Shown: positions 17,647 through 19,548 of the stretch, one piece after another
Layout: the number at the start of each line of letters is the position of its first letter
Numbering within the stretch: the first letter of the stretch is position 1
Source of the DNA: an uncultured bacterium
Lineage (GTDB): Bacteria; Verrucomicrobiota; Verrucomicrobiia; Verrucomicrobiales; DEV007
Reading direction: 5' to 3'
Length of the DNA: 64,000 nt
Assembly (NCBI GenBank): GCA_963977015.1
Contig: CAXBMO010000012.1
Location: 102,602 to 166,601, forward strand
Translations under genes and position numbers: made by a program
The notes under the pieces: model-generated
Databases searched by the model: none
The model's input: the letters and a program-made list of their open reading frames with translations, nothing else
What the model was told of the DNA's origin: nothing

Positions 17647-19548
17647 ATGACGATGCTCACCAAATCTCCAGCCACCTCTCCACCGCTGCGCAGTCCTCGC
17701 CCCTACAAAAAGTGGCTTCTGGAGATCGACCGCCAAGGCCAGTGGATGGCGGATCAGTCGACCGAGGCATTGCGGGAAAAGGTGGCGGACTGGCAGGAAC
17801 AACTGCGCTTTCGGCGCATCTCGCGGGAACAAATCCGGATTCCCGCCTTCGCCCTGGCCCGGGAAGTTGCGTTTCGCACGACTGGTCTTCGAGCCTACCC
17901 GGAACAACTCTTCGGAGCACTGGCCTTGACGAAAGGGGCGGTTGCCGAATTGGCCACGGGAGAAGGAAAGACGTTGGTGGCGATGTTGGCGGCATTCCTG
18001 TTTGCGCTGGAGGGAAGGGGCGTTCATGTGGTGACGGTCAATTCCTATCTTGCCGAGCGCGACGAAGCCTTTGCCCGCTCTTTCTTCGATTCTCTGGGGT
18101 TGACGGTCGGGCTTTTACCGGAGCGGGGAAATCCCGCCGCGAAGCGGGAAGCCTATGGCAAGGATGTTACCTATGGGGTGGGTTATGAGTTTGGGTTCGA
18201 CTATCTACGGGATCAGTTGGCCTTGATCCGTCAGCCGAAATTGCGTCCCACAAAGAAGCTCGAGCGTCTGTTTCTGAATCAATCTGTCGTACAAGAGGTA
18301 ACGGTGCAGCGTCGTCTTGCGTTTGCCATTATTGATGAGATTGACAGTGTGTTGATTGATGAGGCAGGGTCGCCACTTGTCGTGGCAGAGGCATCCCGGA
18401 ACACAGGTGCATTGGCCCGGCCCTACGAATTGGCCCATCAGGTTGCCGGCCAATTGGAGAAGGGGATTCACTATCAGAATGGCAGTTCCGGCAGGACTCC
18501 AGCCTTCACCCGGGAAGGGAAACGACGCATTGACGAGGTTCCGGATGTTCCCTGGGATCTTCTGAAACGGCCCTGGCCTTACTATGTAGCGAATTCACTG
18601 GTTGCAAGGGAGGGATATCACAAGGAGGAGCATTATATTATTCAGGATGGCAAAATCGTGATCGTGGATGAATTCACCGGCCGGGCCCACGAAGAGCGTT
18701 CCTGGCAACGAGGCCTTCACCAAGCCGTCGAGGTCAAGGAGTCAGTCACCGTGCAACCGGAGATGGAGTCTGCCGCAAGCATTACCCGGCAACGGTGCTT
18801 TGGGCTCTATCAACAGATCTGCGGCTTGACCGGAACCGCGTCCGAATCGGCACATGAATTTCGCTATTTTTTCAAGCTCCCTGTTCTCCGGGTTCCCCTT
18901 CATCGCCCTAACCAACGTGAAAGCCTGAAGGATCGTGTCTTTGTGAACCAGGAAGCGATGTTGAATGCGGTCGTTGAGGAAATTGCGCAGCGTCACGCCA
19001 CCGGTCAACCGGTTCTTCTCGGAACACGGACGATCCAGGTGAGTCAGGAAATTTCGAAACGATTGACCGAACGACAGATCTCGCACCAGATTTTGACGGC
19101 GAAGCAGGACGAAGAGGAAAGTGCCATCGTTGAAAGTGCGGGGAGTCCGGGAAAGGTTTTGGTCGCGACAAATATGGCAGGGCGGGGCACCCACATTCCG
19201 GTTCCGCAGGAATCCCTGGAGCTGGGCGGCCTTCATGTCATCGGGGTTGAGCGAAATGAGTCCGTCCGGATCGATCGCCAATTGATCGGCCGGACGGCGC
19301 GTCAGGGGCAACCGGGTAGTTCGCAGTTTTTCATCAGTGCCGACGATGCCCTATTGACGGTCTTTGCGCCGCGCGTATCGGCGGAATGGAAGAACATGCC
19401 TTGCAAAGCAAACGGACAACTACCCGGCCATCTGGCGCGCATCTACCGCCAGGTTCAGCGCAAAGCGGAAAAGCAACGCTATCAGCAACGGATCCTGACC
19501 GCGAAACGCGATGAATGGATCGATCAAACTCGCCGCATCCTGGGCTAA
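17647..19548 (+). CDS. SecA-like ATPase, C-terminally truncated paralog (about 630 aa)
   Basis: Walker [29 protein letters not shown], Walker B [19 protein letters not shown]. PPXD-like [36 protein letters not shown], NBD2 GQPVLLGT...[11 protein letters not shown]...[28 protein letters not shown]. The protein ends ~60 aa after NBD2. ATG 17647 is chosen because the 17176 start overlaps the previous gene. Confidence 0.8.
   Translation: [633 protein letters not shown]

What the first reader, a model, noticed from the sequence alone, without database searches (positions are those of the whole stretch)
17647..19548. SecA paralog that stops just after NBD2: no helical-wing domain, two-helix finger or C-terminal tail
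The protein aligns by eye with canonical SecA from the N-terminus through NBD1 ([23 protein letters not shown]), the PPXD (IVDEFTGR...[10 protein letters not shown]) and NBD2 ([39 protein letters not shown]).

It ends about 60 aa later, at ...[34 protein letters not shown]. That tail corresponds only to the start of the helical scaffold helix. Canonical SecA has roughly 250-300 more residues, including the two-helix finger that inserts into SecY.

The usual GRGTDI motif reads GRGTHI here.

Its position inside a HlyD/M50 operon argues for a dedicated, SecYEG-independent or accessory role. It would presumably be in addition to a housekeeping secA elsewhere in the genome.
Basis: partly seen in the sequence, partly recalled or inferred. 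Interest (0 to 1): 0.7.

Follow-up and report, generated by a model that had tools for sequence, protein, structure and literature searches.

The report
Short SecA motor of export operon
This gene encodes a naturally shortened copy of the protein-export motor SecA; it sits in a conserved five-gene operon resembling a type I secretion machine, a family first described from genomes in 2015 whose function nobody has tested.

Summary
Window 17647-19548 (+) encodes a 633-aa protein with the SecA DEAD motor (NBD1, NBD2) and the preprotein cross-linking domain. It ends inside the first long scaffold helix. The helical wing domain, two-helix finger and C-terminal tail are absent.

This is not a sequencing artefact or a pseudogene. 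All 83 homologues examined end 113-170 residues after the GRG motif. The next gene, a HlyD adaptor, starts 15 nt downstream.

The family is large: 133 of the best 150 cluster representatives are 712 aa or shorter.

[quoted passage not shown] That paper already reported the missing wing/scaffold domain and the co-location with GAF-HlyD, M50 and HlyD genes.

My additions:
- A TolC-like outer-membrane gene is a fifth conserved member (58/83 loci).
- The consensus order is OEP > SecA-short > HlyD > GAF-HlyD > M50-HlyD.
- The M50 zinc-site motifs are conserved.
- GRGTHI marks only the verrucomicrobial clade.
- Giant adhesin-like genes often flank the module, including an 8,880-aa gene here.

Most likely role: ATPase of a SecYEG-independent, type-I-like envelope-spanning exporter. 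This is inferred and untested.

The parts
17647..19548 (+). [quoted passage not shown] No HWD, two-helix finger or C-terminal tail.
17698..18864 (+). Residues 18-406: SecA_DEAD region (NBD1, with the PPXD inserted). Contains Walker A GEGKT and the [11 protein letters not shown] motif. Also holds a roughly 21-aa insert (about 196-216) absent from B. subtilis SecA.
   Evidence: Pfam PF07517, E 5e-88. The insert shows as a gap in the PDB alignment. Motifs are invariant in 27 homologues.
18424..18732 (+). Residues 260-362: preprotein cross-linking domain (PPXD), the polypeptide clamp.
   Evidence: Pfam PF01043, E 1e-21. Modelled with pLDDT of about 76-96.
18907..19371 (+). Residues 421-575: NBD2 (P-loop_SecA / Helicase_C). 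Contains GRGTHI (512-517) and the conserved arginines R513, R541, R544, R549 and R552.
   Evidence: Pfam PF21090, E 3e-51. Invariant columns. GRGTHI in 33/83 homologues versus GRGTDI in 48/83.
19432..19542 (+). Residues 596-632: a single long C-terminal helix, matching the start of the SecA helical scaffold helix. Its end is conserved (...RDEWxDxTRxxLA; D622 and W624 invariant).
   Evidence: AF2 secondary structure. Aligns to B. subtilis SecA residues about 575-609. All 27 aligned homologues stop at the same column.
13516..15384 (+). Inner-membrane adaptor, 622 aa: cytoplasmic N-terminal half of about 355 aa (GAF-type in relatives), one predicted TM helix (359-377) and a periplasmic HlyD/barrel-sandwich domain.
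   Evidence: Pfam HlyD_3 E 1e-18 and HlyD_D23 E 1e-17. GAF is detected in 11/30 homologues but not in this protein itself. TM prediction. Homologues in 47/82 loci.
15375..17633 (+). M50 intramembrane metalloprotease fused to a HlyD adaptor, 752 aa: cytoplasmic N-domain, about 7 TM helices carrying HEFGH and NANPLMRFDG, then a periplasmic HlyD domain.
   Evidence: Pfam Peptidase_M50 and HlyD hits. NCBIfam daptide_HExxH E 5e-44 over nearly the whole profile, below cut-off. HExxH in 44/44 and NxxPxxxxDG in 40/44 homologues. TM prediction.
19564..20382 (+). Short periplasmic adaptor (HlyD/RND_mfp family), 272 aa, with an N-terminal signal-like sequence. It starts 15 nt after the SecA-like stop codon.
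   Evidence: NCBIfam TIGR01730, 97.7 bits against a cut-off of 94.9. Pfam hits. A homologue lies directly downstream of the SecA-like gene in 67/82 loci.
6402..8408 (+). TolC-like outer-membrane factor (OEP), 668 aa, with a signal-like N-terminus. It is the fifth conserved member of the module. In this window about 5 kb of other genes separate it from the rest.
   Evidence: Pfam OEP E 1e-13. TIGR01844 TolC family E 4e-13, below cut-off. Homologues in 58/83 loci, almost always directly upstream of the short SecA and in the same direction.
12539..12865 (-). DUF3467 protein, 108 aa. Possible accessory factor of a subset of modules.
   Evidence: Pfam PF11950 E 1e-6. Homologues lie directly upstream of the GAF-HlyD gene in L004, L055, L079 and L072, and next to the module in L016.
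12913..13293 (-). Second, tandem DUF3467 paralog (126 aa from the internal Met). 55% identical to the first copy.
   Evidence: The public gene call is 126 aa.
80..5248 (+). C-terminal 1,722 residues of a giant gene (8,880 aa on the source scaffold) with beta-helix repeats, two genes upstream of the OEP gene. Speculative cargo candidate.
   Evidence: Pfam Beta_helix E 2e-25. 8,880-aa gene call on the Tara scaffold. Giant adhesin-like ORFs flank the module in 15/82 other loci.

Best explanation
[quoted passage not shown] This is a SecA-derived ATPase that keeps the two nucleotide-binding domains and the polypeptide clamp (PPXD). It has lost everything after the first part of the scaffold helix.

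It is the cytoplasmic motor of a conserved five-protein, envelope-spanning machine:
- a TolC-like outer-membrane factor;
- a soluble periplasmic HlyD-type adaptor;
- an inner-membrane adaptor with a cytoplasmic GAF-type domain;
- an inner-membrane M50 zinc metalloprotease fused to a third HlyD-type adaptor;
- the short SecA itself.

Proposed mechanism, which is inferred and not shown:
1. The short SecA binds an unfolded polypeptide in its clamp.
2. ATP cycles then hold or feed the polypeptide into the inner-membrane M50/adaptor assembly rather than into SecY.
3. The M50 active site cleaves a leader or targeting segment.
4. The three adaptors and the TolC-like channel carry the product across the periplasm and outer membrane.

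The SecA-like motor plus the M50 protein would thus replace the ABC transporter of a classical type I secretion system. The arrangement is functionally analogous to a peptidase-containing ABC exporter.

The cargo is unknown. Giant repetitive surface proteins encoded next to some modules (here an 8,880-aa gene) are candidates. Leader-bearing peptides are the alternative.
For: Shown by tools:
- Domain content and truncation point.
- The truncation is a conserved family trait. 27/27 close homologues end at the same column. 83/83 end 113-170 residues after the GRG motif. 133 of the best 150 cluster representatives at 50% identity are 712 aa or shorter.
- ATPase motifs are invariant: Walker A, DExD and the NBD2 arginines.
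- The operon is tightly packed.
- Synteny holds across four or more phyla. OEP > SecA-short > HlyD > GAF-HlyD > M50-HlyD is complete in 17 loci and partially present in most others. Counts are OEP 58/83, short HlyD 67/82, GAF-HlyD 47/82 and M50-HlyD 45/82, with many loci cut by contig ends.
- The M50 zinc-ligand motifs are conserved: HExxH 44/44 and NxxPxxxxDG 40/44.
- The M50 part resembles leader-removing daptide and YydH/LiaK proteases.
- The predicted topology places all three HlyD domains in the periplasm.
- Giant adhesin-like ORFs (SdrD_B, DUF11, cadherin-like, Big_9, DUF4347) directly flank the module in 15/82 loci. An 8,880-aa gene lies beside this one.

Literature: the same family, the same neighbours and the same type-I-like hypothesis appear in PMC4452313.
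Against: - No experiment exists for any member.
- No cargo gene is conserved with the module. The giant-gene association covers only about 18% of loci, mostly in Planctomycetota, which are rich in giant genes anyway. I had no proper background control.
- The two-helix finger, proposed to push polypeptide in canonical SecA, is absent. How a substrate would be moved is therefore unclear.
- An M50 protease is not known to form a protein-conducting channel.
- No physical link between the short SecA and the membrane proteins has been shown or modelled.
- GAF was not detectable in this window's own adaptor.
- In Methylobacterium extorquens AM1 the operon genes other than the GAF gene were barely expressed in exponential phase (PMC4452313).
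Confidence: 0.6

Rival explanations
1. The module is an ATP-dependent regulated intramembrane proteolysis or signalling complex, not an exporter. The short SecA would act as an unfoldase or extractor that feeds a membrane or cytoplasmic substrate to the M50 (site-2-type) protease. The GAF domain would sense a ligand, and the HlyD domains would serve mainly as oligomerisation scaffolds.
For: - The M50 catalytic motifs are strictly conserved.
- A GAF-type sensor domain occurs in 11/30 adaptor homologues.
- In M. extorquens the GAF gene is expressed separately from the rest, which the 2015 authors read as regulatory.
- No conserved cargo gene was found.
Against: - A TolC-like outer-membrane factor is conserved in 58/83 loci, immediately next to the short SecA.
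- Three separate periplasmic adaptor-type proteins per module, one with a signal peptide, are hard to justify for a purely inner-membrane protease.
Confidence: 0.2
2. Same machine, different cargo. It exports and matures small ribosomal peptides (RiPP-like) or other small molecules rather than large proteins. The M50 domain would act as the leader peptidase. The radical-SAM, halogenase and methyltransferase genes inserted in this window would be the tailoring enzymes.
For: - The M50 part matches the daptide intramembrane metalloprotease model over nearly its whole length (E 5e-44) and the YydH/LiaK epipeptide protease model (E 2e-9).
- In this window a radical SAM gene, two unknown genes, a Trp-halogenase-like gene and an O-methyltransferase lie between or next to module genes.
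Against: - None of those tailoring genes recurs in the 82 other loci.
- No precursor peptide gene was identified.
- All NCBIfam RiPP-protease hits are below their cut-offs.
Confidence: 0.12
3. It is a SecA2-type accessory ATPase that still works with the housekeeping SecYEG channel (or with canonical SecA) to export a subset of proteins.
For: - Sequence similarity to SecA and SecA2 is equally strong (E about 1e-120 to B. subtilis SecA and C. difficile SecA2).
- The AF2 model resembles the SecY-engaged conformation best (TM 0.85).
Against: - It lacks the two-helix finger, the helical wing domain and most of the scaffold in all 83 members.
- It scores below every SecA2 model cut-off.
- It is never seen next to secY/secE/secG in the loci, but is seen consistently next to HlyD, M50 and TolC-like genes.
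- The engineered equivalent, E. coli SecA-N68 (PDB 5K9T), is to my knowledge translocation-inactive. This point rests on memory and was not checked here.
Confidence: 0.05
4. It is a decaying secA fragment, or an assembly or frameshift artefact.
For: None beyond the short length.
Against: - The ORF is intact and the same 633-aa gene is called on an independent public scaffold.
- The next gene starts 15 nt downstream and is a HlyD adaptor.
- The C-terminal end is conserved, with invariant D622 and W624.
- More than 130 divergent cluster representatives have the same length.
Confidence: 0.01

Closest known systems
Secondary SecA_DEAD domain proteins and their conserved locus (Kamneva, Poudel & Ward, PLoS One 2015, PMC4452313)
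   Same: Same domain composition: SecA_DEAD and PPXD, with SecA_SW absent or a small fragment. Same phyla: Verrucomicrobia, Planctomycetes, Proteobacteria and others. Same neighbours: GAF+HlyD protein, Peptidase_M50 membrane protein, HlyD/Biotin_lipoyl protein, sometimes OEP. The M. extorquens operon order (GAF, M50, SecA_DEAD, HlyD) is the same as in this window. The type-I-secretion-like hypothesis is also the same.
   Different: This gene is a new metagenomic member from a Tara Oceans Verrucomicrobiales scaffold. It is at most 57% identical to anything in the reference genome set. Here the OEP gene is separated from the rest by about 5 kb of inserted genes. The 2015 paper mentions OEP only 'in some cases', whereas I find it in 58/83 loci. 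The paper reports neither the M50 motif conservation, nor the clade-specific GRGTHI, nor flanking giant genes.
Canonical SecA (E. coli / B. subtilis; e.g. PDB 1M6N, 5EUL, 6ITC)
   Same: NBD1, PPXD, NBD2 and the start of the scaffold helix are shared, at 33-38% identity. The model superposes at TM 0.85 on SecY-engaged SecA. The ATPase motifs are conserved.
   Different: It lacks the last roughly 155-180 positions of even the shortest SecA models: the rest of the scaffold, the helical wing domain, the two-helix finger and the C-terminal tail. It scores 560-565 bits against cut-offs of 800-862. It carries an NBD1 insert of about 21 aa. It lies in a HlyD/M50/TolC operon.
SecA-N68, the engineered C-terminal truncation of E. 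coli SecA (PDB 5K9T)
   Same: Almost the same domain content (DEAD motor plus PPXD). It is a Foldseek hit at E 2e-50.
   Different: N68 is a laboratory construct. The natural family keeps about 37 further residues of the scaffold helix with a conserved end and has evolved in a dedicated operon.
SecA2 accessory ATPases of Gram-positive bacteria and mycobacteria (TIGR03714, TIGR04221, TIGR04397, NF012136; PDB 4UAQ, 6SXH)
   Same: A second SecA paralog beside the housekeeping one, with comparable sequence similarity.
   Different: SecA2 models are 762-776 positions long and include scaffold and two-helix-finger regions. This protein matches them only to about position 604-609 and falls far below their cut-offs. 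SecA2 proteins work with SecY or SecY2. This protein is encoded with HlyD/M50/TolC-like genes.
Type I secretion and tripartite ABC exporters (HlyB-HlyD-TolC, MacAB-TolC), including peptidase-containing ABC transporters
   Same: Periplasmic adaptor (HlyD-family) proteins plus a TolC-like outer-membrane factor in one operon. An ATPase and a protease are associated with the inner-membrane component. Giant repetitive adhesin-like proteins lie nearby in some loci.
   Different: There is no ABC transporter in the module. The ATPase is SecA-derived and the membrane component is an M50 metalloprotease. There are three different adaptors instead of one.
SecA_DEAD/PPXD regions without scaffold-wing embedded in giant Omnitrophota and actinobacterial proteins (West-Roberts et al., bioRxiv 10.1101/2023.11.21.568195)
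   Same: A SecA motor plus preprotein-binding domain that lacks the scaffold/wing domain, found beside a normal SecA. The authors propose a role in exporting giant proteins. One 4,930-aa protein with an embedded SecA-like region also appears among my hits (P0191).
   Different: There the motor is a domain inside the giant protein. Here it is a free-standing 633-aa protein in a HlyD/M50/TolC operon.

Membership tests
Secondary SecA_DEAD domain proteins (Kamneva et al. 2015) | SecA_DEAD (with PPXD) present; SecA_SW wing/scaffold domain absent or only a small fragment. | tested here: met
   Pfam hits to PF07517, PF01043 and PF21090 only, with no SecA_SW. The model ends in one helix.
Secondary SecA_DEAD domain proteins (Kamneva et al. 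2015) | Encoded with a GAF+HlyD protein, a Peptidase_M50 membrane protein and a HlyD/Biotin_lipoyl protein. | tested here: met
   Window genes 13516-15384, 15375-17633 and 19564-20382. GAF itself is detectable only in 11/30 homologues of the first protein, not in the window copy.
Secondary SecA_DEAD domain proteins (Kamneva et al. 2015) | Present in addition to a canonical full-length SecA in the same genome. | not testable with these tools
   No canonical secA lies in the 64-kb window. The rest of the genome cannot be scanned. The paper states this feature for sequenced relatives.
Secondary SecA_DEAD domain proteins (Kamneva et al. 2015) | Falls in the clade of PVC, proteobacterial, Nitrospirae and Chlorobi short proteins, separate from canonical SecA. 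| tested here: inconclusive
   No tree was built. The closest 133 of 150 cluster representatives are short. Homologues at 40-57% identity come from Verrucomicrobiota, Planctomycetota, Nitrospinales and an alphaproteobacterium with the same synteny. Canonical-length SecA start to interleave at about 420 bits.
Canonical SecA (TIGR00963 / NF009538 / NF006630) | Whole-protein score above the curated cut-off. | tested here: not met
   559.6 against 800, 550.8 against 814 and 564.9 against 862 bits.
Canonical SecA (TIGR00963 / NF009538 / NF006630) | Helical wing domain, two-helix finger (IRA1) and full helical scaffold. | tested here: not met
   The alignment stops at B. subtilis residue 609 and at profile position about 611/789. 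There is no SecA_SW hit.
Canonical SecA (TIGR00963 / NF009538 / NF006630) | DEAD motor with Walker A/B motifs and NBD2 arginines, plus the PPXD. | tested here: met
SecA2 accessory translocases (TIGR03714, TIGR04221, TIGR04397, NF012136) | Score above the curated cut-off of any SecA2 model. | tested here: not met
   443 against 930, 420 against 725, 551 against 1085 and 376 against 1100 bits.
Type I secretion system / tripartite ABC exporter | Inner-membrane ABC transporter as the energising component. | tested here: not met
   No ABC transporter family recurs among genes within 10 kb in 82 loci. None lies in the window operon.
Type I secretion system / tripartite ABC exporter | Periplasmic adaptor (HlyD/MFP) and a TolC-family outer-membrane factor. 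| tested here: met
   Three HlyD-domain proteins. The OEP/TolC-like protein has Pfam E 1e-13 and TIGR01844 E 4e-13, below cut-off, and is conserved in 58/83 loci.
M50 / site-2 protease family (for the neighbouring gene 15375-17633) | HExxH and NxxPxxxxDG zinc-ligand motifs within transmembrane segments. | tested here: met
   HEFGH at residue 215 and NANPLMRFDG at 310. Conserved in 44/44 and 40/44 homologues. The Pfam M50 score is below the gathering threshold (22.2 against 27.2).
Known or candidate anti-phage defence systems (PADLOC) | Any module protein matches a PADLOC model. | tested here: not met
   No hit for six proteins at E <= 1e-3.

The most novel reading that the evidence does not exclude
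The five-gene module (TolC-like OEP, short SecA, three HlyD-type adaptors, one fused to an active M50 intramembrane protease) is a distinct, still unnamed class of one-step envelope-spanning secretion system. In it a SecA-derived motor and an intramembrane protease replace the ABC transporter of type I secretion. At least some of these systems would export giant repetitive surface proteins such as the 8,880-aa protein encoded beside this one.
Probability: 0.35. Interest if true: 0.8.

Novelty: new member of a known kind. Interest (0 to 1): 0.45.

Why it matters
If the inferred function is right, SecA's motor has been recruited to power a channel other than SecY. This would be a secretion apparatus with no characterised representative. 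It is widespread in Verrucomicrobiota and Planctomycetota and also occurs in some Proteobacteria, Nitrospinota and others. It could explain how some of these bacteria export very large surface proteins or leader-bearing peptides without an ABC transporter.

A natural SecA lacking the two-helix finger also bears on a mechanistic debate. It could help test whether that finger is needed for polypeptide movement or only for coupling to SecY.

The family and its context were already published in 2015. The value here is confirmation, a sharper definition of the module and candidate cargo, not a discovery.

Tried and rejected
1. Sequencing error or frameshift hiding the C-terminal domains. Rejected. 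The HlyD gene starts 15 nt after the stop codon, and the end is conserved in all homologues.

2. Canonical secA in the window. None was found among ORFs of 330 aa or more. The single genome-contig scan showed that the source genome is not in that collection (best hit 57% identity).

3. GRGTHI as a family-wide catalytic change. Rejected. It occurs in only 33/83 homologues, the verrucomicrobial clade.

4. DUF3467 neighbours as SecB-like chaperones. A profile search of the PDB found nothing. The AF2 model on a 26-sequence alignment reached only pLDDT 48.9. Foldseek gave no hit better than E 0.8. The idea is unsupported and was dropped.

5. GAF in the window's own adaptor. Pfam finds none even at E <= 1, although 11/30 homologues have it.

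6. Radical SAM, halogenase, methyltransferase and two unknown genes as conserved parts of the module. Rejected. There are no homologues in the 82 other loci.

7. The 243-aa downstream gene (20477-21208) as a conserved member. It is found in only one other locus, L018.

8. Defence-system membership. There are no PADLOC hits.

9. Promoter and terminator scan of 12400-21900. Counts did not exceed those from shuffled sequence.

10. Later experimental literature. Six full-text searches found only the 2015 paper and the unrelated giant-gene preprint. Papers outside the held library could exist.
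Full report
**1. What is there**

Window 17647-19548 (+) is an intact 633-codon ORF. A longer reading frame from ATG 17176 overlaps the preceding gene by about 460 nt. The public gene call on the source scaffold uses the same 633-aa product.

Pfam finds SecA_DEAD (E 5e-88, residues 18-406), the preprotein cross-linking domain SecA_PP_bind (E 1e-21, 260-362) and P-loop_SecA (E 3e-51). 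It finds no SecA_SW wing/scaffold domain.

phmmer against all PDB chains aligns residues 12-631 to B. subtilis SecA residues 11-609 (E 1e-121). Scores are similar for C. difficile SecA2, E. coli SecA and M. tuberculosis SecA1.

Every SecA and SecA2 NCBIfam model is matched only up to profile position about 604-611 of 762-789. Every score is far below the curated cut-off, for example 559.6 against 800 for TIGR00963.

An AlphaFold2 model built on 27 sequences is confident (pLDDT 86.4, pTM 0.79). Its last element is one long helix, residues 596-632. Foldseek superposes it best on SecY-engaged SecA (5EUL and 6ITC, TM 0.85, rmsd 3.0-3.1 A). It also retrieves the engineered truncation SecA-N68 (5K9T).

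NBD1, PPXD, NBD2 and the beginning of the scaffold helix are present. The rest of the scaffold, the helical wing domain, the two-helix finger and the C-terminal tail are absent.

**2. Not an artefact, not a pseudogene**

The next gene starts 15 nt after the stop codon and is a HlyD-family adaptor.

A database search returned more than 100 proteins of 600-690 aa at 47-67% identity, almost all from Verrucomicrobiales. In an alignment of 27 of them, all end at the same column (...RDEWxDxTRxxLA), with D622 and W624 invariant. The Walker A motif, the DExD box and the NBD2 arginines are also invariant.

In 83 homologous ORFs from reference genomes, the distance from the GRG motif to the C-terminus is 113-170 residues, with a median of 123.

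An exhaustive HMMER search of 1.84 billion cluster representatives found that 133 of the best 150 (clusters at 50% identity) are 712 aa or shorter. Canonical-length SecA begin to interleave only at about 420 bits.

Across the 83 homologues, 48 retain the canonical GRGTDI. The histidine is a signature of the verrucomicrobial clade, not of the family.

**3. Context**

In the window the genes are packed as an operon:
- 13516-15384: cytoplasmic domain, one TM helix, HlyD domain.
- 15375-17633: M50 metalloprotease with about 7 TM helices, fused to a HlyD domain. It overlaps the previous gene by 10 nt.
- 17647-19548: the short SecA, after a 13-nt gap.
- 19564-20382: a 272-aa adaptor with a signal-like N-terminus, after a 15-nt gap.

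I fetched 80 loci encoding relatives from one-genome-per-species reference contigs, plus two from metagenome look-ups. They come from Verrucomicrobiales, Opitutaceae, Methylacidiphilales, many Planctomycetota, a Nitrospinales genome and a Blastochloridaceae alphaproteobacterium.

tblastn and phmmer with the window's neighbours find the short adaptor directly downstream of the short SecA in 67/82 loci. The long adaptor is found in 47/82 and the M50-HlyD fusion in 45/82. Many loci are cut by contig ends.

Unbiased clustering of all ORFs in these loci revealed a fifth conserved gene. This is a TolC-like outer-membrane factor, present in 58/83 loci. It is almost always immediately upstream of the short SecA and in the same direction.

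The window's copy is 6402-8408 (Pfam OEP E 1e-13; TIGR01844 E 4e-13).

The consensus order is OEP > SecA-short > HlyD > GAF-HlyD > M50-HlyD. It is complete in 17 loci. The window is a rearranged form, sharing the G-M-S-H order with L004, L055 and L079. Here about 5 kb of unrelated genes sit between the OEP gene and the rest.

The M50 zinc-ligand motifs are conserved: HExxH in 44/44 homologues and NxxPxxxxDG in 40/44. The protease is therefore probably active.

The M50 part matches the daptide intramembrane leader-protease model over nearly its whole length (E 5e-44). It also matches the YydH/LiaK epipeptide protease model (E 2e-9). Both scores are below cut-off.

GAF domains are detected in 11/30 homologues of the long adaptor, but not in the window's own copy.

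**4. It is already in the literature**

[quoted passage not shown] According to that paper they occur beside the canonical SecA of those genomes. They form a clade separate from canonical SecA and are sister to actinobacterial SecA2. They are encoded in a conserved locus with a GAF+HlyD protein, a weakly recognisable Peptidase_M50 membrane protein and a HlyD/Biotin_lipoyl protein, sometimes with an OEP protein.

The authors proposed a type-I-secretion-like machine in which the SecA_DEAD protein supplies ATPase activity and the M50 protein supplies the membrane component. They stressed that nothing had been tested. The M. extorquens AM1 operon they cite has the same gene order as this window.

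Six full-text searches found no later experimental work.

A 2023 preprint (10.1101/2023.11.21.568195) reports SecA_DEAD/PPXD regions that also lack the scaffold-wing domain, embedded in giant Omnitrophota and actinobacterial proteins.

**5. How it most likely works**

Shown by the analysis:
- An intact DEAD motor and polypeptide clamp.
- Loss of the parts canonical SecA uses to engage and push into SecY.
- Strict co-occurrence with three periplasmic-adaptor proteins, an apparently active intramembrane metalloprotease and a TolC-like channel.

Inferred:
- The short SecA binds unfolded polypeptide.
- It docks on the cytoplasmic face of the M50-HlyD and/or GAF-HlyD proteins and uses ATP to hold or feed the substrate.
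- The M50 site removes a leader.
- The adaptors and the TolC-like protein provide the path to the outside.

This would be a functional analogue of a peptidase-containing ABC exporter, with the ABC transporter replaced. I put this at about 0.6.

The main rival is an ATP-dependent regulated intramembrane proteolysis or signalling complex (0.2). It fits the conserved protease and the GAF domain. It does not explain the conserved TolC-like gene and the three adaptors.

A cargo variant, small leader-bearing peptides (0.12), is suggested by the RiPP-protease similarity and by this window's radical SAM, halogenase and methyltransferase genes. None of those genes recurs in other loci.

A SecYEG-dependent SecA2-like role (0.05) and a pseudogene (0.01) are unlikely.

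**6. Candidate cargo**

The source scaffold (Tara Oceans, 272 kb) shows that window ORF 80-5248 is the C-terminal end of an 8,880-aa gene with beta-helix repeats. It lies two genes upstream of the OEP gene.

In 15/82 other loci an ORF of 1,500 aa or more, or one of 1,000 aa or more cut by the contig end, directly flanks the module. The four I scanned carry SdrD_B, DUF11, SpaA, cadherin-like, Big_9, DUF4347, CBM9 and PKD domains. These are repetitive surface or adhesin-type proteins, the classical cargo type of type I systems.

This is suggestive only. Most cases are in Planctomycetota, which have many giant genes, and I had no proper background control.

**7. Verdict**

The gene is a new, metagenomic member of a family whose existence, truncation and genomic context were published in 2015, but whose function remains untested.

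The additions here are:
- the TolC-like gene as a regular fifth member, and the consensus operon order;
- conservation of the M50 catalytic motifs;
- the clade-restricted GRGTHI;
- a confident structure model;
- an estimate of family size;
- the giant-gene neighbourhood.

Whether a canonical secA exists in this particular genome could not be checked.

Noticed in passing
window 6402-8408 (+); homologues in 58 of 83 loci, e.g. L001 7230-9926, L003 459-2474: A TolC-like outer-membrane factor of 670-900 aa, unusually long for the family. It is a regular fifth gene of the short-SecA module, normally directly upstream of the short SecA. In this window about 5 kb of other genes displace it.
   Followed up: yes
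window 12539-12865 (-) and 12913-13293 (-); L004 2850-3236, L055 5356-5673, L079 5288-5605, L072 16416-16742, L016 12793-13131: Two tandem DUF3467 paralogs lie divergently upstream of the operon. Single homologues sit directly upstream of the GAF-HlyD gene, on the same strand, in four other loci from three lineages. I tested a SecB-like chaperone idea, but it could not be supported: the model had low confidence and there were no structural hits.
   Followed up: yes
window 80-5248 (+), continuing upstream of the window; L083 17618-20327: This ORF is the C-terminal end of an 8,880-aa gene with beta-helix repeats. In 15 of 82 related loci, giant repetitive adhesin-like ORFs (SdrD_B, DUF11, cadherin-like, DUF4347) directly flank the module. 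They are possible cargo, but there was no background control.
   Followed up: partly
window 5252-6289 (+), 8453-9373 (+), 9357-10160 (+), 10072-11007 (+), 11004-12527 (-): An O-methyltransferase, a radical SAM protein (best match HxsC4-like, far below cut-off), two overlapping ORFs with no family match and a tryptophan-halogenase-like flavoprotein lie between or beside module genes. The set looks like a tailoring-enzyme cluster. It is not found in any of the 82 related loci, and no precursor peptide was identified.
   Followed up: partly
L004 + L025 (same MAG), L023 + L028, L030 + L031; L034 and L037: Several metagenome-assembled genomes carry two copies of the short-SecA module on different contigs. 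Two planctomycete loci carry a second, inverted GAF-HlyD/M50-HlyD pair next to the first.
   Followed up: no
L012 8023-8526 (+): A short SecA-like fragment (61% identical to residues 132-195 of the query) lies about 1.3 kb upstream of the intact short SecA gene. It is possibly a remnant of a duplication.
   Followed up: no
protein P0191 (4,930 aa), residues 3003-3548: A giant protein with an embedded SecA-like region scores 437 bits against the window protein. This is as high as many free-standing family members, and hints at a link between the short family and the SecA domains of giant proteins.
   Followed up: no
window 34340-39022 (-) and 39224-41704 (+): A 1,560-aa WD40-repeat protein is divergently paired with an 826-aa CHAT-domain (caspase-like protease) protein.
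   Followed up: no
window 20477-21208 (+): A 243-aa protein with a hydrophobic N-terminal segment and no family match follows the operon. It is conserved only in L018. A terminator-like hairpin overlaps its stop codon (21190-21209).
   Followed up: partly
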